Source: a virus (taxonomy: Duplodnaviria > Caudoviricetes). From it: a stretch of DNA of 52,782 bases. The notes under the pieces are model-generated. The model saw only the letters and a list, made by a program, of their open reading frames with translations. It was not told the origin of the DNA and ran no database searches. Positions 39,894 through 52,782 of this stretch are shown here, in pieces. The position numbers and the translations under genes are program-made. Positions within the stretch are counted from its first letter, which is position 1. Each line of letters begins with the position of its first letter. The stretch covers positions 1-52,782 of IMG/VR virus record IMGVR_UViG_3300025154_000134; one strand, 5' to 3'.

Positions 39894-40118
39894 TCAATGT
39901 CTGTCATGCGTCCACCTCTCGATGGCTTCGGCCAGGTCCAGGTTCAACGCGCGAGCGGCAGCTTGTACCAAGTCTTCGAGCCGCGTCAGTTCGGAGAGGA
40001 TCGCTTGTGATTCCTCTGGCGACAGATTGGCATAGATGGTGTCTACATCGCCAACCATTGATGCTGAAATGCGCAGTGTTGAGCGTGCTGATTTCAGGTA
40101 TGCTTCGTGTGCAGTCAT
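39894..40118 (-). CDS. Hypothetical protein
   Basis: Coupled to the upstream ORF. Confidence 0.5.
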   Translation of the reverse strand: MTAHEAYLKSARSTLRISASMVGDVDTIYANLSPEESQAILSELTRLEDLVQAAARALNLDLAEAIERWTHDRH

Positions 40119-40509
40119 CCCTCACCGTCCGTGTCATCGCCGCACGTGCATTCCGCGAGTGTCTTCCCACAGTCGGGGCAGGTGAGCACCGCGAGCAAGT
40201 CGGGCGAGAATTGCAACTCGCCGCCCCCCATGAACGGGATGCCGTCGTACTCATTCATGGATACGATCTGCTCTCGCAGCCGCGCATTCTCCGCCAGCAG
40301 CGCGGGTATGTCGGTACGGGCGGCGGCGATGAACTCGGCGTTCTGCTCCCCCGCTGCCATCCAGGGGCGCACCGAGCAAACATCTATCGGATGCGTCTCT
40401 GAGATCACCAACCTGTGATCGGGGTGCGCTTCGTCTATTCGTACATACCACGGCCCCGGCGTTGCGCCTCACACCGCGCTTTGATCGCGTCAAGCTCCTG
40501 TTGGTTCAT
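40115..40509 (-). pseudogene. Ead/Ea22-like protein with a 1-bp frameshift near 40465
   Basis: MNQQELDAIKARCEA | TPGPW...NAEFIAAARTDIPALL; the intact paralog at 42349-42783 has one extra base at this position. Confidence 0.8.
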
Positions 40510-40558
40510 TGGTGTCTTCCTCCATATATTCGTACTGGTTATCGGCGGCGGTTGCGGG

Positions 40559-40779
40559 CTAGACTTCGAACAGTCGCGGTTGTTTTTCCTCACACTTGCA
40601 CGATCCGAAATCTTCCATGGCCCGTTCGCTGGCTACGCGCTCAATTGTCAAGCCGTCGCGTATCCACTTGGAGACCTCACGGCTTACCGTGTCCCTGCGC
40701 TTTGGGTTTCGATGATCGCGCCAACCACCACACCACACGAACACCGGGCAATATAGGACATTGCATAATCGTTTTCCAT
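40559..40779 (-). pseudogene. Small hypothetical protein with a probable frameshift near 40708
   Basis: GGAGG and ATG 40779 give MENDYAMSYIARCSCGVVVGAII; NPKRRDTVSREVSKWIRDGLTIERV continues in the adjacent frame. Confidence 0.5.
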
Positions 40780-40996
40780 CGTTTCATCCTCCATCTAGGG
40801 GCGACTCGCGCTGCCCCGCTAGTGTAGTACACTCTAGCTACGGGGGCGGGTGTCGTCAAGGATGGCCCGCCCTCGTGCTGTGTGGCCCGCAGGCCCGTAT
40901 GCTCAGACTTGCGGGTCTACGCCGCGTCACTGTTCCACGCGGCCATCACGGCCAGCGCGCACAGCGCCACGAACACCACGGCGATCACCGCCAGCG

Positions 40997-41116
40997 TTAG
41001 CAGTCATACCTGCCTTTTCTTTCATGATCCTCCATAATGAGCGTCACTATATACACAAGCGTGCCAAAAAAGATACCGAAGCCGCAAAACGGCATCACCA
41101 ACTCAGTCAGAGTCAT
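40997..41116 (-). CDS. Small membrane protein
   Basis: 39-aa hydrophobic ORF with ATGA overlap. Confidence 0.4.
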   Translation of the reverse strand: MTLTELVMPFCGFGIFFGTLVYIVTLIMEDHERKGRYDC

Positions 41117-41415
41117 GACCGCACCGTCCTGCGATAGCGCCGCTCCCTGCACGCTTTGGAGGCCAACTCATACGCCAGCCTCACCCGGTCCCGATAGGCT
41201 ACCCGCGACCAGTCACGGTGGCTATTACGCATCAGGGTCACGGTGTGAGGCTGCACGTACCGGGTTTCATAGTCCTCGAAAAACACTTCGATCATACCCT
41301 CGCGGACCGTCAACACGTAACCAAGACTGCCAGCATGCAGGGGTATTATGCCGTGCAGACTGTACAGCGGGATGGTCGTGCGAATGGTCGCGCCGGGGCG
41401 GAGGTCAGCGGTCAT
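41113..41415 (-). CDS. Hypothetical protein
   Basis: ATGA overlaps. Confidence 0.55.
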   Translation of the reverse strand: MTADLRPGATIRTTIPLYSLHGIIPLHAGSLGYVLTVREGMIEVFFEDYETRYVQPHTVTLMRNSHRDWSRVAYRDRVRLAYELASKACRERRYRRTVRS

Positions 41416-41714
41416 GACGCGCCCTCGGTCCCGCTGAAATCACTCAGCGTGGCATTAGGCACCGTGATGTCACTCCCAGCGAAATCCTCTACCTGGTGCG
41501 AAAAGGTGAACATTGCATCGAAGGCTCCCCATTCTTCCATAGGCGGGGCGGCTACCGGCTCTCCGGCGTCGTGCGCGGTCGTGCCGTTGCGCGAGTCCTC
41601 GAAGACAGCCCATGCCTCATTCCAGCATGTCTGACATAGCGGGTTGTGCGGCAACGCAAAACGCCCGCACCCCTTGGTTGCACACTTCTGCGGACGGTTT
41701 CTATTCACTGACAT
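41412..41714 (-). CDS. Hypothetical Zn-finger protein
   Basis: CATKGC...CQTC; GAGGAG RBS. Confidence 0.6.
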   Translation of the reverse strand: MSVNRNRPQKCATKGCGRFALPHNPLCQTCWNEAWAVFEDSRNGTTAHDAGEPVAAPPMEEWGAFDAMFTFSHQVEDFAGSDITVPNATLSDFSGTEGAS

Positions 41715-41802
41715 TCTGTAAACTCTCCTCAGACACTAAGTGGTCAAAAATCGGACAATCGACGCGGCGCACAAACACCGCGCTTTGTTTGATTAGATGC
41801 GA

Positions 41803-42126
41803 TTACACGGCATATACCATGTAACCCACCAAGAGAATAAATCCCCACCGAACCGGAACTTTTATCGTCACTTCCAACATGGCACTCCACCACGGTTCTG
41901 ACTTATCATGTGTGTTTGTTTCTGGTGTTGGCTGAAGCGCTGTCGCAACAAGCGCGATCCCGATGGCGGAGCGGATATTTAAAATCGGTGCGGAAAACGT
42001 AGGGACAATAAACCATCCCCATAATTCTTTGATTACGTATCCCTCAAGGATGACACCGAATACAATCAGCAGTACGAACCAGACTAAGGCCAATACGCAC
42101 CCTTCACTAGACATTTTCTTATTCAT
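41803..42126 (-). CDS. Membrane protein
   Basis: Three hydrophobic segments; LWGWFIVP motif. Confidence 0.7.
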   Translation of the reverse strand: MNKKMSSEGCVLALVWFVLLIVFGVILEGYVIKELWGWFIVPTFSAPILNIRSAIGIALVATALQPTPETNTHDKSEPWWSAMLEVTIKVPVRWGFILLVGYMVYAV

Positions 42127-42169
42127 GACACTCTCTCCGTTTTCACTCGATTCAGACGAATAGTGTTCG

Positions 42170-42345
42170 ACGCGGCGGGCTGGGCTGTAACGTGCCGGGG
42201 TGCGAGTCCCGGTCGGACAAAAACAAGAGCTTGTCCGTGTCTCTAACGTGTGACATAAACCCCGCCCGCGTTGCCGTCTACTCGTGCTCGGACTGGGCGA
42301 CCTCTACGCGCGGCGCTTGCGTAGGGGGCGGCGCTGCTGCGGTTG
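42170..42345. ncRNA. Candidate structured intergenic RNA
   Basis: GCGGGC/GCCCGC closing stem around CCGGG/CCCGG, CGGACAA/TTGTCCG and GTGTC/GACAT hairpins. Confidence 0.4.
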
Positions 42346-42348
42346 CGG

Positions 42349-42783
42349 TCATTTTATGAATCCCTTTTCTGCCATCAGCGCCCGCAGGTTTAGTATTTCC
42401 TTCTTGATTTCCTCTTGTTGCTCGATATATTTTATTTGGCTTCCAATCCATTGAAGCCGCGTTGCCGCCTCTTCCTGAATGGCTTCATCGCGCGCTTGGG
42501 ATACACGCTCAAGCTCCGCCGTTAGCGCGGCGATGTGGTCGAGCAGCACAGGGATGTCCGTGCGGGCGGCGGCGATAAACTCGGCGTCAGGTTTGCTATC
42601 CAGTGCATCACTTATATTGCTCATTGACCAGCTTGGGCCGTCAATCTGATACACTGGATCGCGCTCAGCGTCTCCCCAATTGACCCACAAATTCCATTCT
42701 TCAAACTTCCACGGTCCCGGCGTTGCCGCCTCACACCGTGCTCTGATTTCGTCAAGCTCCTGGTTATCCATCGGCGCGCTCAA
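42349..42783 (-). CDS. Ead/Ea22-like protein
   Basis: ELDEIRARCEAATPGPW...DAEFIAAARTDIPVLL. Confidence 0.75.
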   Translation of the reverse strand: MSAPMDNQELDEIRARCEAATPGPWKFEEWNLWVNWGDAERDPVYQIDGPSWSMSNISDALDSKPDAEFIAAARTDIPVLLDHIAALTAELERVSQARDEAIQEEAATRLQWIGSQIKYIEQQEEIKKEILNLRALMAEKGFIK

Positions 42784-43235
42784 CAGTGCCCGCAGTTGGC
42801 GGGCGTGTCGTAGTCGGGCGGTAGGGGGGCGGGGGCGGCGGGCACGATGGCGTGCAGTGCATCAAGAATATCTACCGCTGCTTGCCGTCTTCCGGCCTGG
42901 TAGCCTCTACCCTGCGGACTAAGTGGCTGTGCTTTTTCATCAACGCCACACTGGGCAGCCCAGTTGATCATGTACTGACATTCCTGCCTAACAGTAGCAA
43001 GCATCCCCTGCAACCGGATGCACTCGGCTTCCAGCGCAGTGGTCGTTTCTTGTGCCGCATGAACCATCCCGCGCATGGTTTGAACGTCACCGCGCACGGC
43101 GTCCACATATCCTTCTGGCCCCACTTCGCCGTAGGTTAAGGTCGAATAGCACTCGCCTGCGGGAAGCGTTATCTGGTACACATCCAGTATCCATTGCACA
43201 TCGTTCAAAAAGGCAAGCAGTCTGTGTTTCATCAC
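42780..43235 (-). CDS. Hypothetical protein
   Basis: GGAGG RBS; coupled ORF. Confidence 0.6.
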   Translation of the reverse strand: MMKHRLLAFLNDVQWILDVYQITLPAGECYSTLTYGEVGPEGYVDAVRGDVQTMRGMVHAAQETTTALEAECIRLQGMLATVRQECQYMINWAAQCGVDEKAQPLSPQGRGYQAGRRQAAVDILDALHAIVPAAPAPLPPDYDTPANCGHC

Positions 43236-43279
43236 ATCATCCTCCTGGGCGGCGCGTGGCCGCCCTCGTGTCTGCGTCG

Positions 43280-43738
43280 TTAGTCGGGATCAAGCCACGC
43301 GCTGAGGTCAGTCGGGATCGTCGCGCTCGGTTCCAGCACAATATCGCCGGGCATAAACGGATCGCGCCCGTCACTCTTGAGCACCTTTTCATACGCTTTG
43401 GCGTCAAGCGTGATCAGGTCGGGGCGTTTTTCTTCCGCCCACACCCGCGCCGCCGCAAGGTCGTATTGCGCGCGCTTATTCTCACGGATACCCACGCCGC
43501 CGCCGAGCTTCTTTTGCCCGGTCGCCAGAAATTCAGCGATGGCCTGCGCTCGAATGGCGGATTCGAGCTGTTTCAGGTCTTCGGCGCGAGTGGCAACCAC
43601 AGCAATCAGTTCAGCGTTCTCTCCTTCGAAGCAGGCGCGGCGGTCGTTCAAAACGCCCTGCGTGGCTTCGTATATCGCGCGGCTGAACGCATACTGGCGT
43701 ACTTTGGTTTCCAGGTCGGTTTGTTTAATTTCGTTCAT
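43280..43738 (-). CDS. Gam/Gp157-like coiled-coil protein
   Basis: Coiled coil followed by GVGIRE..Y....A..WA...LD.KAYEK; next to the recombinase. Confidence 0.55.
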   Translation of the reverse strand: MNEIKQTDLETKVRQYAFSRAIYEATQGVLNDRRACFEGENAELIAVVATRAEDLKQLESAIRAQAIAEFLATGQKKLGGGVGIRENKRAQYDLAAARVWAEEKRPDLITLDAKAYEKVLKSDGRDPFMPGDIVLEPSATIPTDLSAWLDPD

Positions 43739-43797
43739 TGTTTCTCCCTCATTCCTCATTCTCTGCGTGATGGATGCGTAGCCCCGGCCCCGTGCGT

Positions 43798-45297
43798 CTA
43801 CAGGTCCAGCGCCCCGGCGGGATCGCTGGCGTCGAACATCTCGGCGGGCTGTTCCGTGCCGAGGCGTTGCACCTTCGCTGCGCAATCATCGCACAACCGC
43901 GAGTCCACCGGGTTGATCGTGCGCTGGCCGCCGCACTCAACACATTCCTGAGCCAGCGTGTCAACCATGAGCCAAAACACGGTCTCGTCTTGCACGTCTG
44001 TCAGGTGTTCCACGCCCAACCGCGCCTTGAGTGTTTCATACGACACGGCTACTTCCTTCAACTTTGCGTGGATTTTCCTGCGTTCCTTGTCAACGACGGT
44101 CGCTCCCCACGGAGCAGGGGCAGGGGCGGTGTCAATAACTTCGCCGTCTTCGGTGATGGCAACGTCGGGAGCGTTGTTGAACTGGTTCAGGAGCGCGATC
44201 TGCTCGACCACGATCTTGAATTCGTCAGGGGTAATGGACGTTCGCCGCCAGTCGGTGATCATCAGGCGGTTATTTATCTGATCGTCCGTGACGCCCAACT
44301 CCGCGCGGTAGGACTCGGCGCGTTTGATCGCATCAGGCGTGAGCCACTCGGCAGGTTCTGCGGGTGAAGATTGCCCGTTGATAATCATGGGCGGCGTGTC
44401 GCCTTCAAAGACGTATTCGCCCTCTACCACGTCACCGCCCACGATGTGGGGCAGGTTGATCGTGAGGTCTGCGAATTTGTAGTACAGGTCGCGCCGGGCG
44501 CGTTTCTCCGCTACCCATGCCCCATCTCGCCCGTTGGGGATGTCGTTGGCGATGCGCTTGACCGGGTGTTTGCCGTTCACCTTCGGGGCGTCCCAGTCTA
44601 CGCCGTCTTTCATCGCTGCCCACCAACCAAACCCGGTTTTGGGTTCATAGCCGATTCCGGCGGCGCGACACTTTATCGCCTGGTCCAATTCGTGGCCTTC
44701 GACCACGTAAGCAATGGAACCGTCTTCGATATCCTGATCCGAAATTCCGCGCGCTTTCATTTCATCCACCGTGAGGCGGCGAACCTTTTCCATCAGCGGT
44801 TTGGAGCGGATGATCAGCGCCTTGTAATCGGGCATAACTGTGAGGATTTCTTTTTCTTCCCATTGCCCGGTCACATCGTTTTTGGTTTTCTTTTTGTTGA
44901 TCCAGGCGTGCAGGTAAAACTCTGGCGTCAACCCGGTCAGCAATCCAACCATCGCCACATAGCGTTGGTGCGCCGGTTTCAGCCCGTCAAACTTTGGGCA
45001 GAGCGCGACCTGCATCGTCATCTCTTGCAAGACCTGCTCATTACCGTACAGGGACACGCGGCGATCAATCGTCGCCACTTCATTCCGTTGCCGTGCGGTT
45101 GCCATAATACTGCTCTCCATATCCGCTAATTTGGTTTTCAATTGGTTGAGTTCTGACTCATACTCGTGTCGCATTTTGAGCGCCCACACGGGCCACTCGG
45201 CGGGCGGTTGGTCGTCGCGCCGTGGCGTTGCGGTTGTGGTCACGCTTCCGGGGCCGCTAATGCGGCGGCTCTCGCGGGGTGTCTGCTCAAGTGCCAT
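43798..45297 (-). CDS. Putative single-strand annealing recombinase (RecT/Red-beta-like) with C-terminal Zn ribbon
   Basis: GLTP, DYKALI, VAEKRARRDL.YKF resemble the family core; CVEC..CDDC. Confidence 0.55.
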   Translation of the reverse strand: MALEQTPRESRRISGPGSVTTTATPRRDDQPPAEWPVWALKMRHEYESELNQLKTKLADMESSIMATARQRNEVATIDRRVSLYGNEQVLQEMTMQVALCPKFDGLKPAHQRYVAMVGLLTGLTPEFYLHAWINKKKTKNDVTGQWEEKEILTVMPDYKALIIRSKPLMEKVRRLTVDEMKARGISDQDIEDGSIAYVVEGHELDQAIKCRAAGIGYEPKTGFGWWAAMKDGVDWDAPKVNGKHPVKRIANDIPNGRDGAWVAEKRARRDLYYKFADLTINLPHIVGGDVVEGEYVFEGDTPPMIINGQSSPAEPAEWLTPDAIKRAESYRAELGVTDDQINNRLMITDWRRTSITPDEFKIVVEQIALLNQFNNAPDVAITEDGEVIDTAPAPAPWGATVVDKERRKIHAKLKEVAVSYETLKARLGVEHLTDVQDETVFWLMVDTLAQECVECGGQRTINPVDSRLCDDCAAKVQRLGTEQPAEMFDASDPAGALDL

Positions 45298-45305
45298 GAC
45301 TTACC

Positions 45306-45563
45306 TCACTTGTCTCTATGGCCGTTGAGGGCCATGTATCGGTCATAGGGCGTTTGCCGTGCGCGTGGTGTGCTACTCATCAGCGCCCAGTGATCCACGG
45401 CGTGTTTATAGCATCGGACACCGGCGCGGCGCTTGGCCTCACGGAACGCAGCAGCTTTGGACATCCCGCCGCCTTCGAACCAAACCCCGCCAATCGTGAT
45501 CGCCACGCGGTGCGACTGATAGCCGAAGGCGGTTGTCTGGATGGTGCCCCATCGCCCCGTCAT
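45306..45563 (-). CDS. Hypothetical protein
   Basis: ATGA overlap. Confidence 0.5.
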   Translation of the reverse strand: MTGRWGTIQTTAFGYQSHRVAITIGGVWFEGGGMSKAAAFREAKRRAGVRCYKHAVDHWALMSSTPRARQTPYDRYMALNGHRDK

Positions 45564-45799
45564 ATCTGCCACCCTTGGAGCAGGCCCAGGCTCCTGCACA
45601 TCACGGCCCCATTCAGCGCAGCAGTCAACCACGCTTCCAGGTCGCCGTCGCGGGCGTGGGTGACGGCGTTCGTCGGGCGCGTGTTGCCGCGCTCCTGCAA
45701 ACGCACGGTATCGGTGTCCCAATCCATCACGACTCCGCACTCCGAAAACGCGGCGCGCATTTGTTGAAGGTCAGCGGTACAAAGTTCATTGGCGTCCAT
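45560..45799 (-). CDS. Hypothetical protein
   Basis: AGGAG RBS. Confidence 0.55.
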   Translation of the reverse strand: MDANELCTADLQQMRAAFSECGVVMDWDTDTVRLQERGNTRPTNAVTHARDGDLEAWLTAALNGAVMCRSLGLLQGWQI

Positions 45800-45824
45800 A
45801 ATATAGTCTCCTAGTTATCAAAAT

Positions 45825-46061
45825 TCAGAACGGGGCGGGGGCGTCATACACCGGCACCAACGCCGGGTCGTCGGATAGGCGGTCGGGTACGTCTTCGGTC
45901 GCTGTGACCGCGCTGACCACTGGGGCCGCCTTCTGTGCCAGGGCGTGCAGCCGATGGTACAGCAGGCACGCGCCGGGTGTGTTGGGGCCGCGCTGCATGA
46001 CCTGCCGGGCGAGCGTGATCAGGCGGGCGAGCTCATCAGCGTCGATGGTGATGTGGCTCAC
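45825..46061 (-). CDS. Hypothetical protein
   Basis: GGAGG RBS; GTGA overlap. Confidence 0.55.
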   Translation of the reverse strand: MSHITIDADELARLITLARQVMQRGPNTPGACLLYHRLHALAQKAAPVVSAVTATEDVPDRLSDDPALVPVYDAPAPF

Positions 46062-46498
46062 GCTTCCACCTCCACAAACTCGCCGCCGCGCACGTCGTGC
46101 AGTTGCGCGGAGTAGTCGGCGTACAGCGGGGCGCGTTTGGCTTCGTAGTCGGCGTCCAGCGTGTCGCGTTTGGCTTCGTAGTCGGCGTCCAGCGTGTCGC
46201 GTGCGGACTGCCACGCCTCGATGATTGGCCCGGCCTGCTGCGCGACTTCGCGCACACGGTTGTCAATCGTCTCGCGCAGGCGTTCAGCCCACGCGGGGAT
46301 GGCCATCTGGTCGAGCGTTACCGCCTCATACGGAGGCTTACACTCGGTGCGCAGCCAGTGCGCCAGGGCGGGATCGCCTTGGTCGTCAAGGCTCAGTGCG
46401 GCAATAAGCGGCTCGTGGTGCATCGTCAGACCGTGATACACCGTGATTTCGTCGGTCAGCGGGTCATGCTGTACAGTACTTGAATGATTGTTGCACAT
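46058..46498 (-). CDS. Hypothetical protein with 11-aa repeats
   Basis: RDTLDADYEAK twice, then RAPLYADYSAQ; AGGAG RBS. Confidence 0.7.
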   Translation of the reverse strand: MCNNHSSTVQHDPLTDEITVYHGLTMHHEPLIAALSLDDQGDPALAHWLRTECKPPYEAVTLDQMAIPAWAERLRETIDNRVREVAQQAGPIIEAWQSARDTLDADYEAKRDTLDADYEAKRAPLYADYSAQLHDVRGGEFVEVEA

Positions 46499-46549
46499 CT
46501 CTCATGTCTCCTGTGCCCCCAACGGGGCTATTATTTTACGCGGTCAGAA

Positions 46550-46828
46550 TTACGCGATCACGACCGGCACCAACGTCGCCAACAGCGCGATCACCATCAC
46601 CGTCCACCGCAGCAGCCATTCGCCGCGCTTGACGCCCGCTGATGGTACGTAGTGTAGTACCAGCGCGTTATGATCGTGCGCCCACTCTGCGAGCGTGGCC
46701 TGTTCATTGCGCGTGAGCGTGCAGTCCGGCGAGCGCAGCCACGCGTCGAGCGCGGCGGTGTCGATGCCGTCGGTGACGGGGTCACGAAACGGGGTCAGGG
46801 TGATCTCTGCGTAGCGGGTGTTAAACAT
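46550..46828 (-). CDS. Hypothetical protein with C-terminal TM segment
   Basis: GGAGG RBS; first gene after the leftward promoter. Confidence 0.6.
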   Translation of the reverse strand: MFNTRYAEITLTPFRDPVTDGIDTAALDAWLRSPDCTLTRNEQATLAEWAHDHNALVLHYVPSAGVKRGEWLLRWTVMVIALLATLVPVVIA

Positions 46829-46882
46829 GGTGCGTGCCTCCTGCCCCGGCGACGGGGCTGATGCTCTCAACTCTATGCCTTT

Positions 46883-46911
46883 ATTATAAACCCTATCTAG
46901 CAAGATGTCAA
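46883..46911 (-). promoter_or_regulatory. Consensus sigma70 promoter of the leftward early operon
   Basis: TTGACA-17 bp-TATAAT on the minus strand. Confidence 0.88.
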
Positions 46912-46935
46912 TAGGCAAACTTGCCATACTGCCCC

Positions 46936-47358
46936 CTAATTGTTAGGGTATCGACTTCGCAGCAGTTGCATTCCCTGAGATCTGCCATAATTTTTGCTGT
47001 TCGCTATGTACTTGTCATTCCGTAGAGGTGCACCGTGGTTGTGCAGTTTCACAATCCAGAATCGTTCTCGCTGGTGGGCCTGTTGGTATGGCACTGTCTC
47101 AATAACAACTAACACTGGCCGCAGCCTCGCTTCTAATAATTCGCGTATCCACAGCGCCAGCTTTGGGCTTGCAACATACGGTTTTTTAACGCACATGTGG
47201 CTTATCATCCGCCCCTTGGGATTAATAGTAACCCCCACATAACAAATTCTGCTGTCGCGCGGATCGACCAATGCATAGATAGTATGAGGTTTTGTCAGCA
47301 GGTTGTGCCGTCGGGTGTCAATTCCTTGTTGTATTGACGCGCTTGATCTTGTAGTCAT
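46936..47358 (-). CDS. GIY-YIG endonuclease
   Basis: TIYALVDPRD...YVGVT..PKGR...H; ERFWI...LRN. Confidence 0.85.
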   Translation of the reverse strand: MTTRSSASIQQGIDTRRHNLLTKPHTIYALVDPRDSRICYVGVTINPKGRMISHMCVKKPYVASPKLALWIRELLEARLRPVLVVIETVPYQQAHQRERFWIVKLHNHGAPLRNDKYIANSKNYGRSQGMQLLRSRYPNN

Positions 47359-47384
47359 TTCTCATTTCCTTTATGATTTGTCTT

Positions 47385-47413
47385 ATTTTATCACCAAACA
47401 AGCAAGATGGCAA
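47385..47413 (-). promoter_or_regulatory. Sigma70 promoter for the GIY-YIG gene
   Basis: TTGCCA-17 bp-TAAAAT on the minus strand. Confidence 0.65.
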
Positions 47414-47430
47414 ACAGACACGACGGCGTA

Positions 47431-47459
47431 TTGACAATCAGAACGGGATAGTTTAAAAT
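47431..47459 (+). promoter_or_regulatory. Rightward sigma70 promoter
   Basis: TTGACA-17 bp-TAAAAT. Confidence 0.8.
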
Positions 47460-47486
47460 TGTTTACAGGTAGAAAGGAGACGCCAC

Positions 47487-47741
47487 ATGGGCGATGAATT
47501 GAGTTTTCGCGTTAGTTTCAGGCTCAATGGAAAGGCTGCACGAGCGTTCCTTGAGGAACAAAGCCGTATCTTGCGCCTGACAGGTTCAGCAGTACAGTCA
47601 GCCAAATCAACCCTCGGTGAAGCGGCTGCAATTGAATTTCTCAACAGGCGCGGTTATGACGTGCCGAAGTCCAGTACGAACTGGGGCGGTCGCCGCGAGG
47701 AACCCGAAACCGTCACCGTTCAGCAGGAGGTGCAGGCATGA
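47487..47741 (+). CDS. Small putative DNA-binding regulator
   Basis: AAGGAG RBS; first gene after the rightward promoter; beta strand followed by two helices. Confidence 0.55.
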   Translation: MGDELSFRVSFRLNGKAARAFLEEQSRILRLTGSAVQSAKSTLGEAAAIEFLNRRGYDVPKSSTNWGGRREEPETVTVQQEVQA

Positions 47742-47881
47742 AGCACATCGTTCCGCTCGTGATCGTGGTCGTCATGGCACTCGCCCCCGTGCGCGCGCCC
47801 AAGTCGCTGCCACCCGGCCCGCCCGACAGTGGCTGCGGCGGCATGGTTGACACGCCCGCGTGCGGGTACGCGGGGCCGTAA
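47738..47881 (+). CDS. 47-aa putative exported peptide
   Basis: GGAGG RBS, ATGA overlap, MKHIVPLVIVVVMALA signal-like N-terminus. Confidence 0.5.
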   Translation: MKHIVPLVIVVVMALAPVRAPKSLPPGPPDSGCGGMVDTPACGYAGP

Positions 47882-47889
47882 ATTGACAT

Positions 47890-48032
47890 GCCCCCTGGCC
47901 CTGGCGGGTGTCCGCGTCAGAACACTGTCGGGCGGTTCGTGGTCTGCGCCGATGAGCCTGGCGAGTACGGACCAAAATAACGGACGGCTCCACGATACGC
48001 CGTCCGAGCGGGTTCGATCCCCGCAGGGGGCA
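47890..48032 (+). ncRNA. Oversized tRNA-like RNA 1 (143 nt)
   Basis: Perfect acceptor stem GCCCCCT/AGGGGGC plus A; perfect T-arm GCGGG-TTCGATC-CCCGC; interior of about 110 nt with several hairpins. Confidence 0.6.
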
Positions 48033-48146
48033 GCATACCAGTAGGGGGTGCGGTGACGAAAAGAGGATTAAGCCCGCACACACGATAGGCCCTTCACTCC
48101 CAGGAGTGGTCCCGTCCTGGCACAAAATGAGAGAAACGGGACACAT

Positions 48147-48289
48147 GGATCGGCGGCGTGGTGGGAACACGCGCAGCAAGTTAACCGCTTGCGAATTCGG
48201 TAGCTCAGCGGATAGAGCAGGGAATCGCAGACCCGAATGGTAATCGGGCAGTCGTTTCCACGCGCGGGTTCGACTCCGGCCCCGATCCA
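48147..48289 (+). ncRNA. Oversized tRNA-like RNA 2 (143 nt)
   Basis: Acceptor stem GGATCGG/CCGATCC plus A; D-arm GCGT..GG..ACGC; GGTTCGACTCC T-loop; second D-arm-like TAGCTCAGCGGATAGAGCA inside. Confidence 0.55.
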
Positions 48290-48435
48290 CAGTGCTATCG
48301 CCGGGGCGTGGTGGGACCGGCAGCCGACTAGGATCGCAACCTGGCCGAGGAATGTGGGAAGCTGCTCGCGATAGCACACCCCGCGCCGCAGGGGGCATCT
48401 GCGGCACACACTCAGGAGAGGGAGAGGGTACAGAA

Positions 48436-49146
48436 ATGGACCAACCAGGAGACGTTGTATATAGCGATTCGGCTGCTGTTCTGGCGCGCGCGCTGGTGGA
48501 CCTGCGTGATCGCGTCATTCAGAAGACGCGCATACAGTTCAACAACCGCGTGGCCGCGATGGACCAGGAGCGCGACTCAGACGTTCATCAGGCTTTGATC
48601 CTCAAGTGGCACGCGCACTTTGAAGACCTCGAAAAAGCCCTGGACGCGGACATCGCCACCATTGCCGAATCCCTACCCATCGTGCAGGAGATGACCGCTG
48701 TCAAGGGCATTGGTACCATGTTGGCGGTCAAGGTGGCGGCGCTCATTGATATTGAGCGGGCAGATACCGTCTCGGCACTGTGGAAGTACGCCGGATATGG
48801 TGTGACCGAAGGGGCACGGGACCGCCTCGAAAAGGGCGAGAAAGCGCCCTACAACATCCGCCTGAAAACGACCTGTTTTCTGGTGGGCGAAAGTTTCATC
48901 AAGTGCAATTCGCCCTATCGCCGCATATACGATGAGGCCAAAGCGTTTTATGAAACAGCTCATCCCGACTGGACTCCGGGTCACCGGCACAATGCCGCAC
49001 GCCGGAAGATGATCAAGTTGTGGCTGTCTCATCTATGGGTGATCTGGCGCACGTTGGAAGGGTTGCCAGTCAGTGATCCCTACATCATCGCGGGGGATAA
49101 CAACCATCACCGGTACATTGGCCCTGAGCAGTTCGGCTGGGGTTAA
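48436..49146 (+). CDS. tasA: TasA-like RNA-guided DNA-binding protein (IS110/Nop-related domain, no nuclease domain)
   Basis: Coiled coil, VKGIGTMLA, VSALWKYAGY, SPYRRIYDEAK, HNAARRKMIKLWLSHLW; 236 aa; no DEDD/RuvC N-terminus; array abuts the stop codon. Confidence 0.8.
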   Translation: MDQPGDVVYSDSAAVLARALVDLRDRVIQKTRIQFNNRVAAMDQERDSDVHQALILKWHAHFEDLEKALDADIATIAESLPIVQEMTAVKGIGTMLAVKVAALIDIERADTVSALWKYAGYGVTEGARDRLEKGEKAPYNIRLKTTCFLVGESFIKCNSPYRRIYDEAKAFYETAHPDWTPGHRHNAARRKMIKLWLSHLWVIWRTLEGLPVSDPYIIAGDNNHHRYIGPEQFGWG

Positions 49147-49399
49147 GCCATGCTATCGGAGTAACCCAGCACTAATAAGCGAGCCGTGGAAAAAAAGGAA
49201 CCCATTCTTCGGAAGCGAGCCATGTTGACAGAGTAACCCATATATAGGAAGCGAGCCAGTTTCCTTAAGTAACCCAACCCGAATAAGCGAGCCGCAGTCT
49301 ATAAGGAACCCATCATTCAGAAGCGAGCCGAAGATACCAGAGCAACCCATAGAATCCGAGCGAGCCAACGGATACAAGAAGCCCAGTGACAGTAGAGCG
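49146..49399 (+). ncRNA. TIGR-type tandem interspaced guide RNA array, 7 units
   Basis: Unit AGCCR-N9-AGNAACCCA-N9-AGCG; starts at 49146, 49182, 49218, 49254, 49290, 49326 and 49363. Confidence 0.88.
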
Positions 49400-49427
49400 C
49401 ATGACAGCACACCCCCAGGGGGACGCG

Positions 49428-50249
49428 ATGATCGACTACCTTGACACCGTGCAGCACATGGACGCGCTCGACCTCCTGCGTAGTCTGCCGGACGCGAGCG
49501 TGGATATGATTTTCACTGACCCGCCTTACGGCCACAACAACAACAACGGCGATCTTATTCAGCGCCGGGAACTGGCACTTGGAAAAGAAAAAGCAGTCCG
49601 TGAGTCTCGGCCAATACTGAACGATGGACCAGAAGCCAACGATCTGTTTTATCGGTTTTTGGGGGAAGCACAACGGGTGTTAAAACCGGGAGCCTGCTGC
49701 TGCTGCTGCTGCTGCGGCGGCGGCGGCCCCGATCCACAATTCGCACGGTGGACTCTGTGGATGGATGAAGTTATCGGATTTAAGCAGGCTGTAGTGTGGG
49801 ACAAAGGGCCAATGGGGATGGGGTGGCATTATCGCCGCAGTTATGAGTTTGTCCTGGTAGCGCAAAAACCCGGCGCGGCATGTAAATGGTATGACGTCAC
49901 CCGCGCGATTGAAAACATTATCCGACCCGGCAACGGGGCGTCGAAACAAATACCAGCCGAAAGCGATCATCCTACAAAGAAGCCGGTGGGGTTGGCAATG
50001 TGGTTTATCAGGTTGCACAGCCAACCCGGAGATATTGTATGCGATCCGTTTGCGGGCGGCGGTTCTACGCTAAAAGCGGCTCGATTGTTAGGGCGAAGGT
50101 TTATCGGGGCAGACTTGGACTTGTATTGGGTTGATTACACCCGCCGCGAATTACAGCAACCGTACACACCGCCGCTGTTCGACCTCGACGCGCCCGCGCC
50201 ACCCGCCGCCGCGCAGCTGCCGCTCATGGGCGAGGGGGACGCGCCATGA
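49428..50249 (+). CDS. DNA N6-adenine/N4-cytosine methyltransferase (beta class) with Cys7-Gly4 run
   Basis: IFTDPPYG, HPTKKP, VCDPFAGGGST. Confidence 0.9.
   Translation: MIDYLDTVQHMDALDLLRSLPDASVDMIFTDPPYGHNNNNGDLIQRRELALGKEKAVRESRPILNDGPEANDLFYRFLGEAQRVLKPGACCCCCCCGGGGPDPQFARWTLWMDEVIGFKQAVVWDKGPMGMGWHYRRSYEFVLVAQKPGAACKWYDVTRAIENIIRPGNGASKQIPAESDHPTKKPVGLAMWFIRLHSQPGDIVCDPFAGGGSTLKAARLLGRRFIGADLDLYWVDYTRRELQQPYTPPLFDLDAPAPPAAAQLPLMGEGDAP
49695..49727 (+). repeat. (TGC)7(GGC)4 trinucleotide repeat
   Basis: Read directly from the sequence. Confidence 0.95.
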
Positions 50250-50491
50250 GCCGATCACTGGTATGGGAAGTAGCGATCCTCAAAGCGGCCACGAAGGTGC
50301 TGACTCTCGACATTACGCGCAACGTTCTGTGGAATATGGCACGGTTCGATCACGGCTTGGTGAACCTGGCGCGGATGGCGGATGGTGACGTGCAGGACGC
50401 AGAGCGCGCCCTCAAGCACCTGGAAACCATGACGGCGGCGGAATACTACGGGCTGGAAGACGACACGCCCGGCGGCCCTGAGCGTCCATGA
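50246..50491 (+). CDS. Hypothetical protein
   Basis: ATGA overlap. Confidence 0.55.
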   Translation: MSRSLVWEVAILKAATKVLTLDITRNVLWNMARFDHGLVNLARMADGDVQDAERALKHLETMTAAEYYGLEDDTPGGPERP

Positions 50492-50496
50492 CTTGC

Positions 50497-50524
50497 TTGA
50501 CAGCGCGCCGGGACGCGCTATACT
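50497..50524 (+). promoter_or_regulatory. Sigma70 promoter upstream of the replication operon
   Basis: TTGACA-16 bp-TATACT. Confidence 0.7.
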
Positions 50525-50529
50525 TGGGG

Positions 50530-50693
50530 GTGTACGGTGATCGTACCGGTGCTGGCCACATCGTGAACATACAAGGGTTAACGGGCGACCAAGAAGGCTC
50601 CTGAATTTTGGGAGCGGCTGAACCGACGTGCTTCTTGGCCAGAGATGCATCAGGTCGCCCGCAGCCGCTGCCAAAGTCCAGGAGTTTTGTTGT
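50530..50693 (+). ncRNA. Structured leader (C4/CI-antisense-like or attenuator)
   Basis: Stem 50598-50620/50662-50684 followed by a T-rich tract; loop segments complementary to 50582-50596. Confidence 0.55.
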
Positions 50694-50706
50694 CTGAGGT
50701 GAGCAC

Positions 50707-50937
50707 ATGACAACCCCGCCGCCAAGTGTATCCCACCAGCGAGAGTCATCCCTTCGCGCTATTCGAGCCGGACTAGACACGGCAGGCTTCCGGCATAGCC
50801 ACCTGACCGATAATCAACTAAACGAGGTGATCGGGACGATGTGTTTCAACATTTTGATGCAGGGTGCAGATGTCTATGACTGGCAGCAATGGGTAACGGA
50901 GATGCGCGCGCGGCTCGACAAGGACGGTGCGGCATGA
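50707..50937 (+). CDS. Hypothetical protein
   Basis: GAGGTG RBS. Confidence 0.6.
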   Translation: MTTPPPSVSHQRESSLRAIRAGLDTAGFRHSHLTDNQLNEVIGTMCFNILMQGADVYDWQQWVTEMRARLDKDGAA

Positions 50938-51626
50938 AAGCGCCAAGCGAACGACATCTTGAGGATTACATCTGGGAACACCCCGAAGCGTTGGGAACGA
51001 TTAACCTTCCGCCCGAATACGGTGAAGATTGTGCTATGTATTCTTTTGTGCTACGACAGTTCCACTTGCCGTCTGGCATTGTAGACCTTATCGGGTTTGA
51101 TTACCGCATGGTAATTTTTGAGCTTAAGAAAAACGTAGTCACTGCACAGGCATTAACTCAGCTCATGCGTTATATGCGCGATCTGCAACGCATTGTCGAT
51201 CGCCTACTTATGACCTTGATGGAGTCACAAGTAACTGAGCCGTGGGCACGCTTACATTTCGATGTGAATCGCATTGGACCCAACCCCCTCTTAGCGGGCA
51301 CGCTGATTGGACACGACATTGAAGACAACAATCTTTTGATCGCCTGCCAAGCCTGTAACGTCGACGTGTATTTATACGAATACGAGAATGGCGTGTATAC
51401 CTTTGAAGACATCAGTCTTAACACTATTATGGGAATGGATGTATATGACAGTGTTTGCCGACTTGCGGCAGGCGAGATTGGCAAGGCGTTCTTTGATCAC
51501 TTCCGACAAGATATCGAAGATCATCCAGCACGAGACGTACAAGTGCAGCGAGCCATGTTCTCTGTACTTAAAGCGGCAGAAGCTCATCTTAAAGAGCGTG
51601 ACGAGATCACAGGCGGTGCAGTATGA
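50934..51626 (+). CDS. PD-(D/E)XK nuclease, NucS C-terminal-like
   Basis: ERHLEDYI, RQF.LPSGIVDLIG, IFELKK, QLMRYM. Confidence 0.7.
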   Translation: MKAPSERHLEDYIWEHPEALGTINLPPEYGEDCAMYSFVLRQFHLPSGIVDLIGFDYRMVIFELKKNVVTAQALTQLMRYMRDLQRIVDRLLMTLMESQVTEPWARLHFDVNRIGPNPLLAGTLIGHDIEDNNLLIACQACNVDVYLYEYENGVYTFEDISLNTIMGMDVYDSVCRLAAGEIGKAFFDHFRQDIEDHPARDVQVQRAMFSVLKAAEAHLKERDEITGGAV

Positions 51627-52684
51627 GTGAAGAACGTCTTATTACGGTTCCAGACAACGCGCGTGGGTTTTACATCCCGCAAGAATACCTGGATATTTGT
51701 ATTCAAGAACGAGCGCGCAAAATATCCAAGGGCCAAAACAAAGGACAAATATCTACTTACCAAGAACAAGACGATGCAGCGGCGGCCATCTTGCGCATCT
51801 TGGAGCGGTGGACTGTCTGGAAAATGAAGCAGTCTAGCAAGGCCCAACCAGACGATCTGTGGATATTCCTTTCACAATCGATGCTGCAAGAGTGGGAACT
51901 GCTTAATGCCTACGGCGAGAGTAGGATCGCCAAAGGATGTGAGTTGTTAGTAGAGCGAGGGTTTGTTGAACGTCGCCGCAATCCAGTGGCATCTAAGCGA
52001 TGGGATCGAACATTTCAATACCGGTTTATGACCGACAACGTACAAGAAGCCGTAAACAATCTTCGCCCATACCTTAATATTAAGGAATGGATAGTTCAAT
52101 ATCAAGGAATGCATTCCTCAATATCAATGGATCGAAACTTTAATATTGAGGAAGCAATACCACAGATACCTTCACAGGAGTCTGCACAGATACCAGAACA
52201 ACAATCTTCTGCGCCTAGTGGCGCGGCGCAGGTTGAAACCCCTGCCAAAGAGATATCCCCCTTCAAGGAAATGCAGACATCCGTGGTCGAGTTGCTATTC
52301 AATGGAAACTGGACACAAGGTGATCGCGCGGGAGCAATCGCTCACATGCTGCTAGGTACATCCAACGAGCCAGCTTTCAAGAAATACAACCTTGAGAAAG
52401 CGACAACGCCGAATGAATTTCAGCGCGTTGTCGAAGCGTATCCACCAGACCTGACATTTCCAAGAGGCGCAGCGAAGATCAATCAGGCGGTATACGACTA
52501 CCGCCAACAACCAGAGGGTGAGGCGCAGCGTAAAACGACTGAACCGTCATCCGATCCAGAATACGAGCGCCTGACAACCTATAACCCAATCTTCGATACC
52601 ATGACGTTTGAGGAAATCCGCGCCTTTAAGGATAACCAGATGCTCGAAAATCTAGAGCGGGTGTTGGGTGGGGGTGCGTCATGA
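51623..52684 (+). CDS. Phage replication initiator / replisome organizer
   Basis: Winged-helix-like LVERGFVERRRNP...WDRTFQY; internal iterons; stop overlaps the DnaB ATG. Confidence 0.75.
   Translation: MSEERLITVPDNARGFYIPQEYLDICIQERARKISKGQNKGQISTYQEQDDAAAAILRILERWTVWKMKQSSKAQPDDLWIFLSQSMLQEWELLNAYGESRIAKGCELLVERGFVERRRNPVASKRWDRTFQYRFMTDNVQEAVNNLRPYLNIKEWIVQYQGMHSSISMDRNFNIEEAIPQIPSQESAQIPEQQSSAPSGAAQVETPAKEISPFKEMQTSVVELLFNGNWTQGDRAGAIAHMLLGTSNEPAFKKYNLEKATTPNEFQRVVEAYPPDLTFPRGAAKINQAVYDYRQQPEGEAQRKTTEPSSDPEYERLTTYNPIFDTMTFEEIRAFKDNQMLENLERVLGGGAS
52072..52155. repeat. Four 22-bp-period iterons (putative replication origin)
   Basis: AATAT cores at 52076, 52098, 52120 and 52142; the first lies in the palindrome CCTTAATATTAAGG. 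Confidence 0.75.
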
Positions 52685-52782
52685 CTGACAACCCGCGCCG
52701 TGTGGAAATCTTGACGCAGTTCAAACAGCAGATCGAGGCCCCAACGTGGCCGGAAGATACCGACGCTGAAGAGGCATTGATC
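52657..52782. repeat. Terminal direct repeat, right copy
   Basis: Identical to 9-134. Confidence 0.95.

What the first reader, a model, noticed from the sequence alone, without database searches (positions are those of the whole stretch)
49151..49395. Predicted guide targets are AT-rich and one contains a -35 box: possible RNA-guided transcriptional repression
Joining spacer A to the reverse complement of spacer B (the TIGR geometry as I recall it) gives TGCTATCGGTATTAGTGC, TGGAAAAAATCCGAAGAA, TGTTGACAGTCCTATATA, GTTTCCTTATATTCGGGT, CAGTCTATATCTGAATGA, AAGATACCA(G)CGGATTCTA and ACGGATACA(C)TACTGTCAC. Target 3 contains TTGACA. Targets 3 and 5 share CAGTC(C)TATAT across the half-site junction. 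The set is more AT-rich than this GC-rich genome. I saw no full self-target, but a search by eye is not exhaustive. Inference: a nuclease-less Tas may silence promoters of host defence genes or of competing mobile elements.
Basis: inference. Interest (0 to 1): 0.75.

Follow-up and report, generated by a model that had tools for sequence, protein, structure and literature searches.

The report
Phage TIGR-TasA guides, targets not found
This is a real seven-guide RNA array next to a nuclease-free TasA protein in an uncultured groundwater phage, but the promoter-like box and AT-richness of its predicted DNA targets do not show that it silences promoters, and no target was found.

Summary
The array and the seven predicted 18-bp targets are real and were derived correctly. 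At 49147-49399 lies a dual-repeat TIGR array of seven units with a 36-nt period. It starts directly after the stop codon of a 236-aa nuclease-free TasA gene (48436-49146). The window is a whole 52.8-kb tailed-phage record.

- **AT-richness:** confirmed. Spacers are 38% GC and the genome is 56.8%. This holds across the family: spacers were lower in GC than their flanks in 64 of 79 related loci, and the guides are A-rich and C-poor. So it tells us about the guides, not about this phage's targets.
- **TTGACA in target 3:** 6% of letter-shuffled sets of this array's seven targets contain it.
- **Motif shared by targets 3 and 5:** 16% of shuffles reach the same similarity.
- **Targets:** no site with 3 or fewer mismatches in the phage itself. 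None with 1 or fewer in 1.8 Mb of related loci. Only scattered exact hits, mostly inside genes, in IMG/VR.

Repression by TasA is already published for another TasA (bioRxiv 10.64898/2026.09.09.750476). One weak hint remains: TTGACA occurs 11 times against 4.2 expected in 744 relatives' guides.

Verdict: a new member of a known kind, with unknown targets. The scan has noted TIGR-TasA loci on other DNA before.

The parts
47431..47459 (+). Sigma-70-like promoter match (TTGACA, 17 nt, TAAAAT; 11 of 12), the nearest consensus promoter upstream of tasA on the same strand
   Evidence: This is a consensus match only. Use of this promoter for tasA is inferred.
48436..49146 (+). tasA: a 236-aa nuclease-free TIGR-associated protein (coiled coil plus Nop domain), with a GGAGAGGGAGAGGG ribosome-binding region upstream
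   Evidence: phmmer against PDB: 9mty_A E 1.1e-27 (query 29-231 on chain residues 125-319 of 331) and TasH 21kl_A E 1.7e-17. PHROG 4285 E 8.6e-40. No Pfam family at E <= 0.01. 171 homologues of about 230 aa.
49147..49150 (+). 5'-truncated edge repeat (GCCA) that opens the array directly after the tasA stop codon
   Evidence: [quoted passage not shown]
49151..49186 (+). Unit 1: spacer A 49151-49159, loop repeat 49160-49168, spacer B 49169-49177, edge repeat 49178-49186
49187..49222 (+). Unit 2: spacer A 49187-49195, loop 49196-49204, spacer B 49205-49213, edge 49214-49222
49223..49258 (+). Unit 3: spacer A 49223-49231 (contains TTGACA), loop 49232-49240, spacer B 49241-49249, edge 49250-49258
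49259..49294 (+). Unit 4: spacer A 49259-49267, loop 49268-49276, spacer B 49277-49285, edge 49286-49294
49295..49330 (+). Unit 5: spacer A 49295-49303, loop 49304-49312, spacer B 49313-49321, edge 49322-49330
49331..49367 (+). Unit 6 (37 nt): 10-nt spacer A 49331-49340, loop 49341-49349, spacer B 49350-49358, edge 49359-49367
49368..49399 (+). Unit 7 (degenerate last unit): spacer A 49368-49376, degenerate loop 49377-49385, 10-nt spacer B 49386-49395, 3'-truncated edge repeat AGCG 49396-49399
   Evidence: [quoted passage not shown]
49427..50249 (+). N4/N6 DNA methyltransferase gene directly behind the array. The ORF is open from GTG 49386; I judge ATG 49427, behind an AGGGGGA ribosome-binding site, the likelier start. 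It is a neighbour, not a conserved partner.
   Evidence: PF01555 E 3e-28. The start was judged from the sequence. A homologue lies within 10 kb of tasA in only 10 of 169 related loci.

Best explanation
Bases 49151-49395 are the spacer-bearing part of a seven-unit dual-repeat TIGR array. The edge repeat is AGCGAGCCR and the loop repeat is AGNAACCCA. The array is very probably transcribed together with the upstream nuclease-free tasA gene of an uncultured tailed phage from groundwater metagenomes.

By analogy with characterised systems, the transcript is cut inside the edge repeats into 36-nt tigRNAs. A TasA dimer holds one tigRNA. Spacer A pairs with one DNA strand and spacer B with the other, over an 18-bp site that reads A + rc(B). 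With no nuclease domain, the complex simply sits on the DNA and blocks transcription or replication there.

The sites are not in the phage itself. They most likely lie in host DNA or in competing mobile elements, and they remain unidentified.

The features that drew attention do not identify promoters. The single TTGACA is within chance. The low GC reflects a family-wide bias of the guide RNAs: they are A-rich, C-poor, and end in a purine.

Shown here: the anatomy, the homology, the absence of a self-target and the composition statistics. Inferred from other systems: processing, dimer binding and repression.
For: Anatomy:
- Seven units have start-to-start spacing of 36 nt (37 once). Two 9-nt repeats alternate, and both start with AG and end with CCA or CCR. 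The array has a 5'-truncated edge repeat at its start and a 3'-truncated one at its end.

Protein:
- E 1.1e-27 to the Nop part of 9mty_A and E 1.7e-17 to TasH.
- Only about 28 residues precede the aligned part, so there is no room for a RuvC or HNH domain.
- H224 aligns with the TasH processing residue H296, and Y216 lies one residue from Y289. In alignment A1 these positions are H in 32 of 36 sequences and Y in 28 of 36.

Family:
- 114 of 170 sources (169 loci plus the window) have 36-nt-period arrays, which parse into near-identical edge and loop repeats in most of them.

Function of relatives:
- MbTasA binds target DNA and reversibly represses a reporter and cysG in E. coli. I read sections 12 and 13 of bioRxiv 10.64898/2026.09.09.750476.

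Geometry:
- The published 8-nt 3' overhangs fit only A + rc(B).

No self-target:
- The best own-genome hits have 4 mismatches in either half-site order, with gaps 0-2.
- No site with 7 or fewer mismatches that are all synonymous: 0 of 575 coding hits.

Composition is a family trait:
- Spacer GC is below flank GC in 64 of 79 non-redundant loci, mean -8.2 points, Wilcoxon p 9e-12. The window ranks 8th of 79.
- Guides are A 0.33, G 0.28, T 0.22, C 0.17 in both spacer A and spacer B. These pair with opposite DNA strands, so the bias belongs to the RNA.
Against: - Nothing here shows expression, processing or DNA binding for this locus.
- No terminator-like site follows the array, and its promoter is only a consensus match 1 kb upstream.
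- Pfam does not recognise the protein.
- No target was found anywhere, so a guide function cannot be demonstrated. The array could be drifting without cognate sites.
- The Y/H spacing is 8 residues here against 7 in SpTasH.
- A weak signal favours the promoter idea that I set aside. TTGACA/TGTCAA occurs 11 times against 4.24 expected in 744 non-redundant guides of relatives. That is rank 16 of 2024 hexamer classes and tied top of 102 same-composition classes. The signal was present in both halves of the data: 7 vs 2.6 and 5 vs 2.1.
Confidence: 0.6

Rival explanations
1. The guides are aimed at promoters (the -35 region) of host defence genes or of competing mobile elements, so that TasA acts as a natural promoter silencer.
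For: - Target 3 contains TTGACA.
- The phage itself has a TTGACA-type promoter match, so its host probably reads such boxes.
- TTGACA is 2.6-fold over-represented in relatives' predicted targets: 11 vs 4.24, about the top 1% of hexamer classes.
- TasA represses transcription in a reporter.
Against: - One TTGACA among seven targets arises in 6% of shuffles.
- Only 11 of 744 relatives' guides carry it.
- TATAAT is under-represented: 3 vs 10.2.
- The replication half alone is not significant: 5 vs 2.1, and 7% of shuffles reach it.
- The AT-richness is strand-asymmetric in the RNA sense, so it is not a promoter signature.
- The exact IMG/VR hits lie mostly inside long ORFs.
- No host genome could be tested.
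Confidence: 0.12
2. The array has no cognate targets. It is a drifting or decaying guide array, or an RNA whose variable parts need only stay unstructured. Its AT- and purine-rich spacers would then reflect RNA-level constraints alone.
For: - No target in the phage, in 1.8 Mb of related loci or in IMG/VR beyond scattered hits.
- The last two units are irregular.
- The window's spacers are no closer to relatives' spacers than shuffled ones: 9 vs 8.2 matches at 1 or fewer mismatches.
- There is a family-wide composition bias and a fixed terminal purine.
Against: - Five of the seven units keep exact 36-nt geometry with intact boxes.
- tasA is intact and its family is large and conserved.
- The array is identical, with 0 differences over 49151-49405, in a contig of a run from another study.
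- The searchable DNA does not include the unknown host.
Confidence: 0.15
3. The guides regulate the phage's own genes (autoregulation or life-cycle control), or they recognise rival alleles of its own genes, with the resident copies recoded.
For: - 8-mer half-site matches cluster at the 5' side of tasA (48231, 48293, 48369, 48515). Only 3.7% of shuffles reach a cluster of that size.
- Earlier scan notes report recoded self-targets in other phages. Those notes are unchecked.
Against: - No full site with 3 or fewer mismatches in either order.
- 0 of 575 coding near-matches differ only synonymously.
- Half-sites in total are not enriched: 9-mers 5 vs 4.1, 8-mers 25 vs 17.9 +/- 5.
- Single spacers did not guide cleavage by TasR (PMC12045711).
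Confidence: 0.04
4. TasA recruits the DNA methyltransferase encoded directly behind the array. This would be RNA-guided DNA methylation, by analogy with box C/D snoRNPs.
For: The methyltransferase gene starts about 30 nt after the array on the same strand, with no terminator-like site between them. Nop-domain proteins scaffold guided methylation in snoRNPs (established knowledge; also the discussion passage).
Against: A homologue of this methyltransferase lies within 10 kb of tasA in only 10 of 169 related loci, and at variable distances. No other neighbour is conserved: 0 of 169 for each of the nine other nearby ORFs.
Confidence: 0.03

Closest known systems
Dual-repeat TIGR-TasA systems (e.g. 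FpTasA of Flavonifractor plautii; Faure et al. 2025, PMC12045711)
   Same: A solo Nop-domain Tas protein next to an array of alternating edge and loop repeats, with two 9-nt spacers per 36-nt unit. Box C (CCA) and box D covary between the two repeats. The edge repeats at both array ends are truncated.
   Different: Box D reads AG rather than the UG described for TaTasR, in both repeats. A purine always precedes it. No tasParB gene is nearby. No terminator-like site follows the array. Nothing has been tested experimentally.
MbTasA and catalytically dead PateTasR/CsTasR as RNA-guided repressors (Xu et al., bioRxiv 10.64898/2026.09.09.750476)
   Same: A nuclease-free Tas protein. The proposed mode of action is the same: guide-directed binding that blocks transcription.
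   Different: I did not establish MbTasA's array type or its identity to this protein. PateTasR and CsTasR are stem-loop systems that lack the Y/H loop, while this locus is dual-repeat with a probable Y/H dyad. The published repression used engineered guides, and natural targets are unknown there too.
TaTasR (PDB 9mty) and SpTasH of Salicola phage CGphi29 (PDB 21kl, 9w03)
   Same: Homologous coiled-coil and Nop region (E 1.1e-27 and 1.7e-17) and the same tandem-spacer guide logic.
   Different: Those proteins carry RuvC or HNH nuclease domains and cut both strands. This protein starts about where their nuclease domains end.
Natural nuclease-deficient CRISPR effectors and dCas9-type silencing
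   Same: RNA-guided DNA binding without cleavage that blocks transcription. The comparison is made in the discussion read.
   Different: The protein fold is unrelated. There are two 9-nt guides on opposite strands instead of one long guide. No PAM is needed. No adaptation genes are known.
Box C/D snoRNPs (Nop56/58, Nop5)
   Same: A Nop domain binds box C/D-like motifs that flank two short guides.
   Different: snoRNPs pair with RNA and carry a methyltransferase. Here the target is DNA, and the adjacent methyltransferase gene is not a conserved partner.

Membership tests
TIGR-Tas (dual-repeat, TasA type) | The Tas protein has a Nop domain homologous to characterised Tas proteins | tested here: met
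   phmmer: 9mty_A E 1.1e-27 over query 29-231; TasH 21kl_A E 1.7e-17
TIGR-Tas (dual-repeat, TasA type) | No RuvC or HNH nuclease domain (this separates TasA from TasR and TasH) | tested here: met
   The protein is 236 aa. The alignment begins at residue 29 and maps to chain residue 125 onward of 9mty_A. No nuclease family was found in Pfam. Homologues are about 222-306 aa. Longer forms were not searched.
TIGR-Tas (dual-repeat, TasA type) | Array of two alternating 8-12-nt repeats separated by 9-nt spacers, with a 36-nt unit, next to tas | tested here: met
   Seven units. Spacing is 36 nt five times and 37 once. The array starts at the base after the tasA stop codon.
TIGR-Tas (dual-repeat, TasA type) | Box C (CCA) at the end and box D at the start of both repeats, covarying between edge and loop | tested here: met
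   Both repeats start with AG and end with CCA or CCR. The covariation rule is in PMC12045711. In relatives the starts covary as AG/AG or TG/TG.
TIGR-Tas (dual-repeat, TasA type) | [quoted passage not shown] | tested here: inconclusive
   Truncated edge repeats are present at 49147-49150 and 49396-49399. No terminator-like site follows the array.
TIGR-Tas (dual-repeat, TasA type) | C-terminal Y/H loop for pre-tigRNA processing | tested here: inconclusive
   H224 aligns with SpTasH H296. Y216 lies one residue off Y289. These positions are conserved as H in 32 of 36 and Y in 28 of 36 sequences of A1. Activity was not tested.
TIGR-Tas (dual-repeat, TasA type) | [quoted passage not shown] | not testable with these tools
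   No run on record as RNA was listed among the holders. This needs small-RNA sequencing of the RNP.
RNA-guided transcriptional repressor (TasA / dead TasR sense) | Guide-dependent binding to a natural DNA target that lowers its transcription | not testable with these tools
   No natural target was found. Repression is known only for other Tas proteins with engineered guides.
RNA-guided transcriptional repressor (TasA / dead TasR sense) | Predicted targets enriched in promoter elements | tested here: inconclusive
   In the window, one TTGACA, chance 6%. In the family, TTGACA 11 vs 4.24 but TATAAT 3 vs 10.2.

The most novel reading that the evidence does not exclude
A minority of phage TasA guides, including tigRNA 3 of this array, are aimed at sigma-70 -35 hexamers. 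TIGR-TasA phages would then carry a natural CRISPRi-like set of promoter silencers. The 2.6-fold excess of TTGACA in 744 independent guides of relatives would be its first statistical trace. The purine-rich guides with an obligatory terminal purine would define a site rule for this clade: a purine-rich half, a central R|Y step, then a pyrimidine-rich half.
Probability: 0.1. Interest if true: 0.7.

Novelty: new member of a known kind. Interest (0 to 1): 0.3.

Why it matters
Both papers in the held library that mention natural targets of tigRNAs say these are unknown. A natural TasA target in a promoter would give this new class of RNA-guided systems its first biological role. This locus does not deliver that. 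Its guides match nothing I could search, and the clues that looked like promoter targeting are chance or family-wide guide properties.

Two things are useful for later work.

- **A caution.** Low GC, purine-richness and the central R|Y step of predicted targets come from constraints on the guide RNA. They should not be read as evidence about the targets.
- **A cheap test.** The modest TTGACA excess seen in relatives' guides can be checked on the full published catalogue of tigRNAs.

Tried and rejected
**Searches for targets that found nothing**
- Own genome: both half-site orders, gaps 0-2, up to 4 mismatches.
- Own genome: near-matches whose differences are all synonymous, 0 of 575.
- 800 unique tigRNAs of the window and relatives against 3.6 million positions of related loci with arrays masked. 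This gave 0 exact hits, 0 with one mismatch and 97 with two. Mispaired controls gave 0-1, 1-5 and 56-86.
- The window's seven targets against the same 169 loci unmasked. The only hit below 3 mismatches had 2, and there were 25 with 3. Mispaired controls gave 0-2 and 23-28.
- IMG/VR exact scans of six of the seven targets with a 0-2 base gap gave 0, 1, 1, 10, 3 and 4 stretches.
- Those 19 stretches have 25-53% GC, and 17 of the 19 lie inside ORFs of 100 aa or more. Several are duplicates of one another. None shares protein similarity with the window: tblastx found no hit at 1e-6.
- A relative in a cellular genome: 687.5 kb of about 700 kb of MAG G001 was fetched. Its 27 parsed tigRNAs had no site with 1 or fewer mismatches, and counts at 2-3 mismatches equalled the mispaired controls.

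**Host and close relatives**
- Megablast of 40000-52782 against the phage collection gave no match.
- Portal tblastn gave at most about 30% identity.
- The best TasA hit among cultured phages was 38.8%, in a Microcystis phage.
- The genome-contig scan gave only 9 loci at 30-37% best-segment identity.
- A search of 401 genomes of G001's phylum found 7 with a match, and 6 of those were distant.
- So no host genome could be searched.

**Ideas tested and dropped**
- Conserved partner genes: none, and the methyltransferase is present in only 10 of 169 loci.
- ParB-like neighbour: none found in Pfam.
- Guides shared with relatives: no excess.

**Other checks**
- No tRNA and no Rfam family at gathering score anywhere in the window.
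- Expression: no RNA holder was listed.
- No structure prediction, complex prediction, fold or atlas job was run. The sequence match to solved Tas structures made them unnecessary.
- The first array parser placed spacer boundaries inconsistently and was replaced. Arrays that failed the parser or the repeat filter were left out of the counts. Pairs were kept only when both spacers were exactly 9 nt. Window units 1 and 6 were added by coordinates.
Figures S4-S5 and table S1 of PMC12045711, and the TIGRSafari resource, may already show spacer composition or targets. In the main texts, 'GC content' and 'AT-rich' have 0 occurrences in all three papers, and 'seed' has 0 in Guan et al.. 'Purine' has 0 in Xu et al. 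and was not searched in Guan et al. In Faure et al. 'purine' occurs only about cryo-EM density.

**What I read of each paper**
- Xu et al.: abstract, sections 5, 10, 12 and 13, and found passages.
- Faure et al., Guan et al. (10.64898/2026.08.11.744272) and PMC13421893: found passages only.
- All other papers: search listing only.

Full report
**What is there**

The window is a complete virus record of 52,782 bases with 56.8% GC. It encodes a large terminase, a portal protein, a tape-measure protein and a DnaB-like helicase, so it is a tailed phage. It has no near relative in the phage collection. Its portal is at most about 30% identical to those of cultured phages.

Identical pieces of it occur in contigs of groundwater- and soil-labelled metagenome runs from several studies. 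One 255-base contig of run X9 covers 49151-49405 with no difference. Runs X7 and X8 look like one data set filed twice.

**The protein**

The ORF at 48436-49146 (+) encodes a 236-aa protein.

- Pfam finds nothing at E <= 0.01.
- phmmer against solved structures gives 9mty_A at E 1.1e-27, with query 29-231 aligned to chain residues 125-319 of 331.
- TasH of Salicola phage CGphi29 (21kl_A) scores E 1.7e-17.
- The aligned part is the coiled-coil and Nop region. Only about 28 residues precede it, so no RuvC or HNH domain is present. That makes it TasA in the nomenclature of Faure et al. 2025 (PMC12045711, passages).
- The protein database holds 171 homologues at E <= 1e-5 among 1370 candidates. 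The best non-identical one is 67% identical, and the 120 listed are 222-306 aa long.
- H224 aligns with the SpTasH processing residue H296, and Y216 lies one residue from Y289. In alignment A1 these positions are H in 32 of 36 sequences and Y in 28 of 36.

**The array**

The array starts at the base after the tasA stop codon.

- Seven units follow, each made of spacer A, loop repeat (AGNAACCCA), spacer B and edge repeat (AGCGAGCCR).
- Five units are exactly 36 nt and unit 6 is 37 nt.
- Unit 7 has a degenerate loop, a 10-nt spacer B and a 3'-truncated edge repeat.
- Both repeats begin with AG and end with CCA or CCR. This is the covarying box D / box C arrangement described.

The loop and edge assignment follows two published rules: the loop repeat is A-rich, and arrays start and end with truncated edge repeats.

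A methyltransferase gene (PF01555, E 3e-28) follows about 30 nt later, with no terminator-like site between.

**Are the 18-mers right?**

All seven are reproduced.

The order A + rc(B) can be checked against the literature. TasR cuts each strand at a fixed place within the part paired to each spacer and leaves 8-nt 3' overhangs. Overhangs are 3' only if each spacer pairs with the 3' half of its strand. On one strand that reads spacer A followed by the reverse complement of spacer B. This derivation is mine. I still ran every search in the opposite order as well.

**What is beyond chance**

- **AT-richness is.** The 14 spacers have 38.1% GC, and none of 20,000 random draws from the genome was as low. 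The phage's own intergenic DNA has 57.7% GC, so its own regulatory DNA is not AT-rich.
- **The TTGACA is not.** 6% of letter-shuffled target sets contain it, and 11% contain it or TATAAT.
- **The motif shared by targets 3 and 5 is not.** 16% of shuffles reach the same similarity.

**The family view**

With alignment A1 I fetched 80 viral, 9 genomic and 80 metagenomic loci that encode relatives.

Arrays with a 36-nt period were parsed in 114 of 170 sources, counting the window, and most have near-identical repeats.

In 79 non-redundant loci, spacer GC (positions 1-8) is below flank GC in 64. The mean difference is -8.2 points, with Wilcoxon p 9e-12. Spacer GC still tracks flank GC (r = 0.55). 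The window ranks 8th of 79.

Guides are A 0.33, G 0.28, T 0.22 and C 0.17, and both spacer A and spacer B show this bias at every position. The two spacers pair with opposite DNA strands. A bias that follows the RNA sense in both therefore belongs to the guide, not to a DNA region such as a promoter.

Position 9 is a purine in 82-97% of spacers and in 14 of 14 here. The centre of every predicted target is thus R|Y by construction. My inference is that the guides are selected to stay unstructured and to form stable purine-RNA/pyrimidine-DNA hybrids. This was not tested.

**The promoter idea in the family**

TTGACA was named before I looked at relatives, so it is a fair single test.

| Data set | TTGACA/TGTCAA observed | Expected | Note |
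|---|---|---|---|
| First set, window included | 7 | 2.6 | 1% of shuffles reach it |
| Independent second set | 5 | 2.1 | 7% of shuffles reach it |
| 744 non-redundant guides, window excluded | 11 | 4.24 | rank 16 of 2024 hexamer classes |
| Same 744 guides, against same-composition classes | 11 | class mean 4.5, sd 2.4 | tied top of 102 classes |

That is a real but weak hint, roughly p = 0.01-0.02, and it concerns 1.5% of guides. Against it, TATAAT is under-represented (3 vs 10.2). Within single spacers a first-order Markov null gives 7 vs 2.3.

**Search for targets**

- The phage holds no site with 3 or fewer mismatches.
- It holds no synonymously recoded site: 0 of 575.
- Half-site matches are not enriched overall. 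There is a marginal cluster at the 5' side of tasA, which 3.7% of shuffles reach.
- 800 guides against 1.8 Mb of related loci gave no hit with 1 or fewer mismatches. Counts at 2 mismatches were near those of mispaired controls: 97 against 56-86.
- The window's own targets against the same loci, arrays included, behaved like the controls.
- Exact IMG/VR scans of six targets gave 19 stretches. They are scattered, mostly in low-GC contigs and inside ORFs, and unrelated to this phage.
- In the one cellular relative that I fetched nearly whole (G001, 687.5 kb), 27 guides had no self-site with 1 or fewer mismatches.
- The host of this phage could not be identified, so the most relevant DNA was not searched.

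**What is known**

Xu et al. (bioRxiv 10.64898/2026.09.09.750476) show that MbTasA and two dead TasR proteins bind DNA and repress transcription reversibly in E. coli. They propose host-gene silencing, suppression of competing elements or life-cycle control. They also state that natural targets cannot yet be determined, because the spacers are short and genomic context is lacking. Guan et al. make the same suggestion in their introduction.

A library search for 'tigRNA' together with 'natural targets' returns only the Faure and Xu papers.

**Verdict**

The locus is a new member of a known kind. Earlier notes of this scan describe TIGR-TasA loci in other phages, some with candidate targets. I tested two of those scenarios here, recoded self-targets and guides aimed at arrays, and found neither.

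Noticed in passing
window 47890-48289: This region directly upstream of tasA contains tRNA-like arms (GGTAGCTCAGCGG..., GGTTCGA...CC). ARAGORN calls no tRNA and Rfam finds no family at gathering score.
   Followed up: partly
window 48292-48301 and 48370-48379: A perfect 10-bp inverted repeat lies in the tasA leader. Each arm carries the first 8 bases of spacer A1. Together with 8- and 9-mer matches of spacers B4 (48231) and B5 (48515), it forms a cluster of half-sites that 3.7% of shuffles reach.
   Followed up: partly
window 46047-46258: A 33-nt-period direct repeat, with 71% self-match at that period, was picked up by the periodicity scan. It was not examined.
   Followed up: no
window 49685-49738: A run of TGC codons followed by GGC codons (poly-Cys then poly-Gly) lies inside the methyltransferase gene. 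Contigs of other runs seem cut there.
   Followed up: no
window 47431-47459: A near-consensus sigma-70-type promoter (TTGACA, 17 nt, TAAAAT) on the + strand. It suggests that the host polymerase reads classical -35/-10 boxes.
   Followed up: no
L081 / G001:C2 (about 6.3-11.4 kb on the minus strand and 45.9-46.4 kb on the plus strand of the contig): The MAG G001, labelled as uncultured Candidatus Saccharibacteria, carries five TIGR arrays on both strands around one tasA. Their repeats are nearly identical to those of the phage clade.
   Followed up: partly
L053 (11193) and L073 (8102): Two unrelated loci share an identical 9-nt spacer. Its reverse complement matches 8 of the 9 bases of the window's spacer A3, the one with TTGACA. 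By my estimate about two such identities are expected by chance among some 1000 spacers.
   Followed up: partly
window 49151-49405 in run X9: The array is letter-for-letter identical in a contig from a soil-labelled run of a different study. No spacer turnover is visible between these samples.
   Followed up: partly
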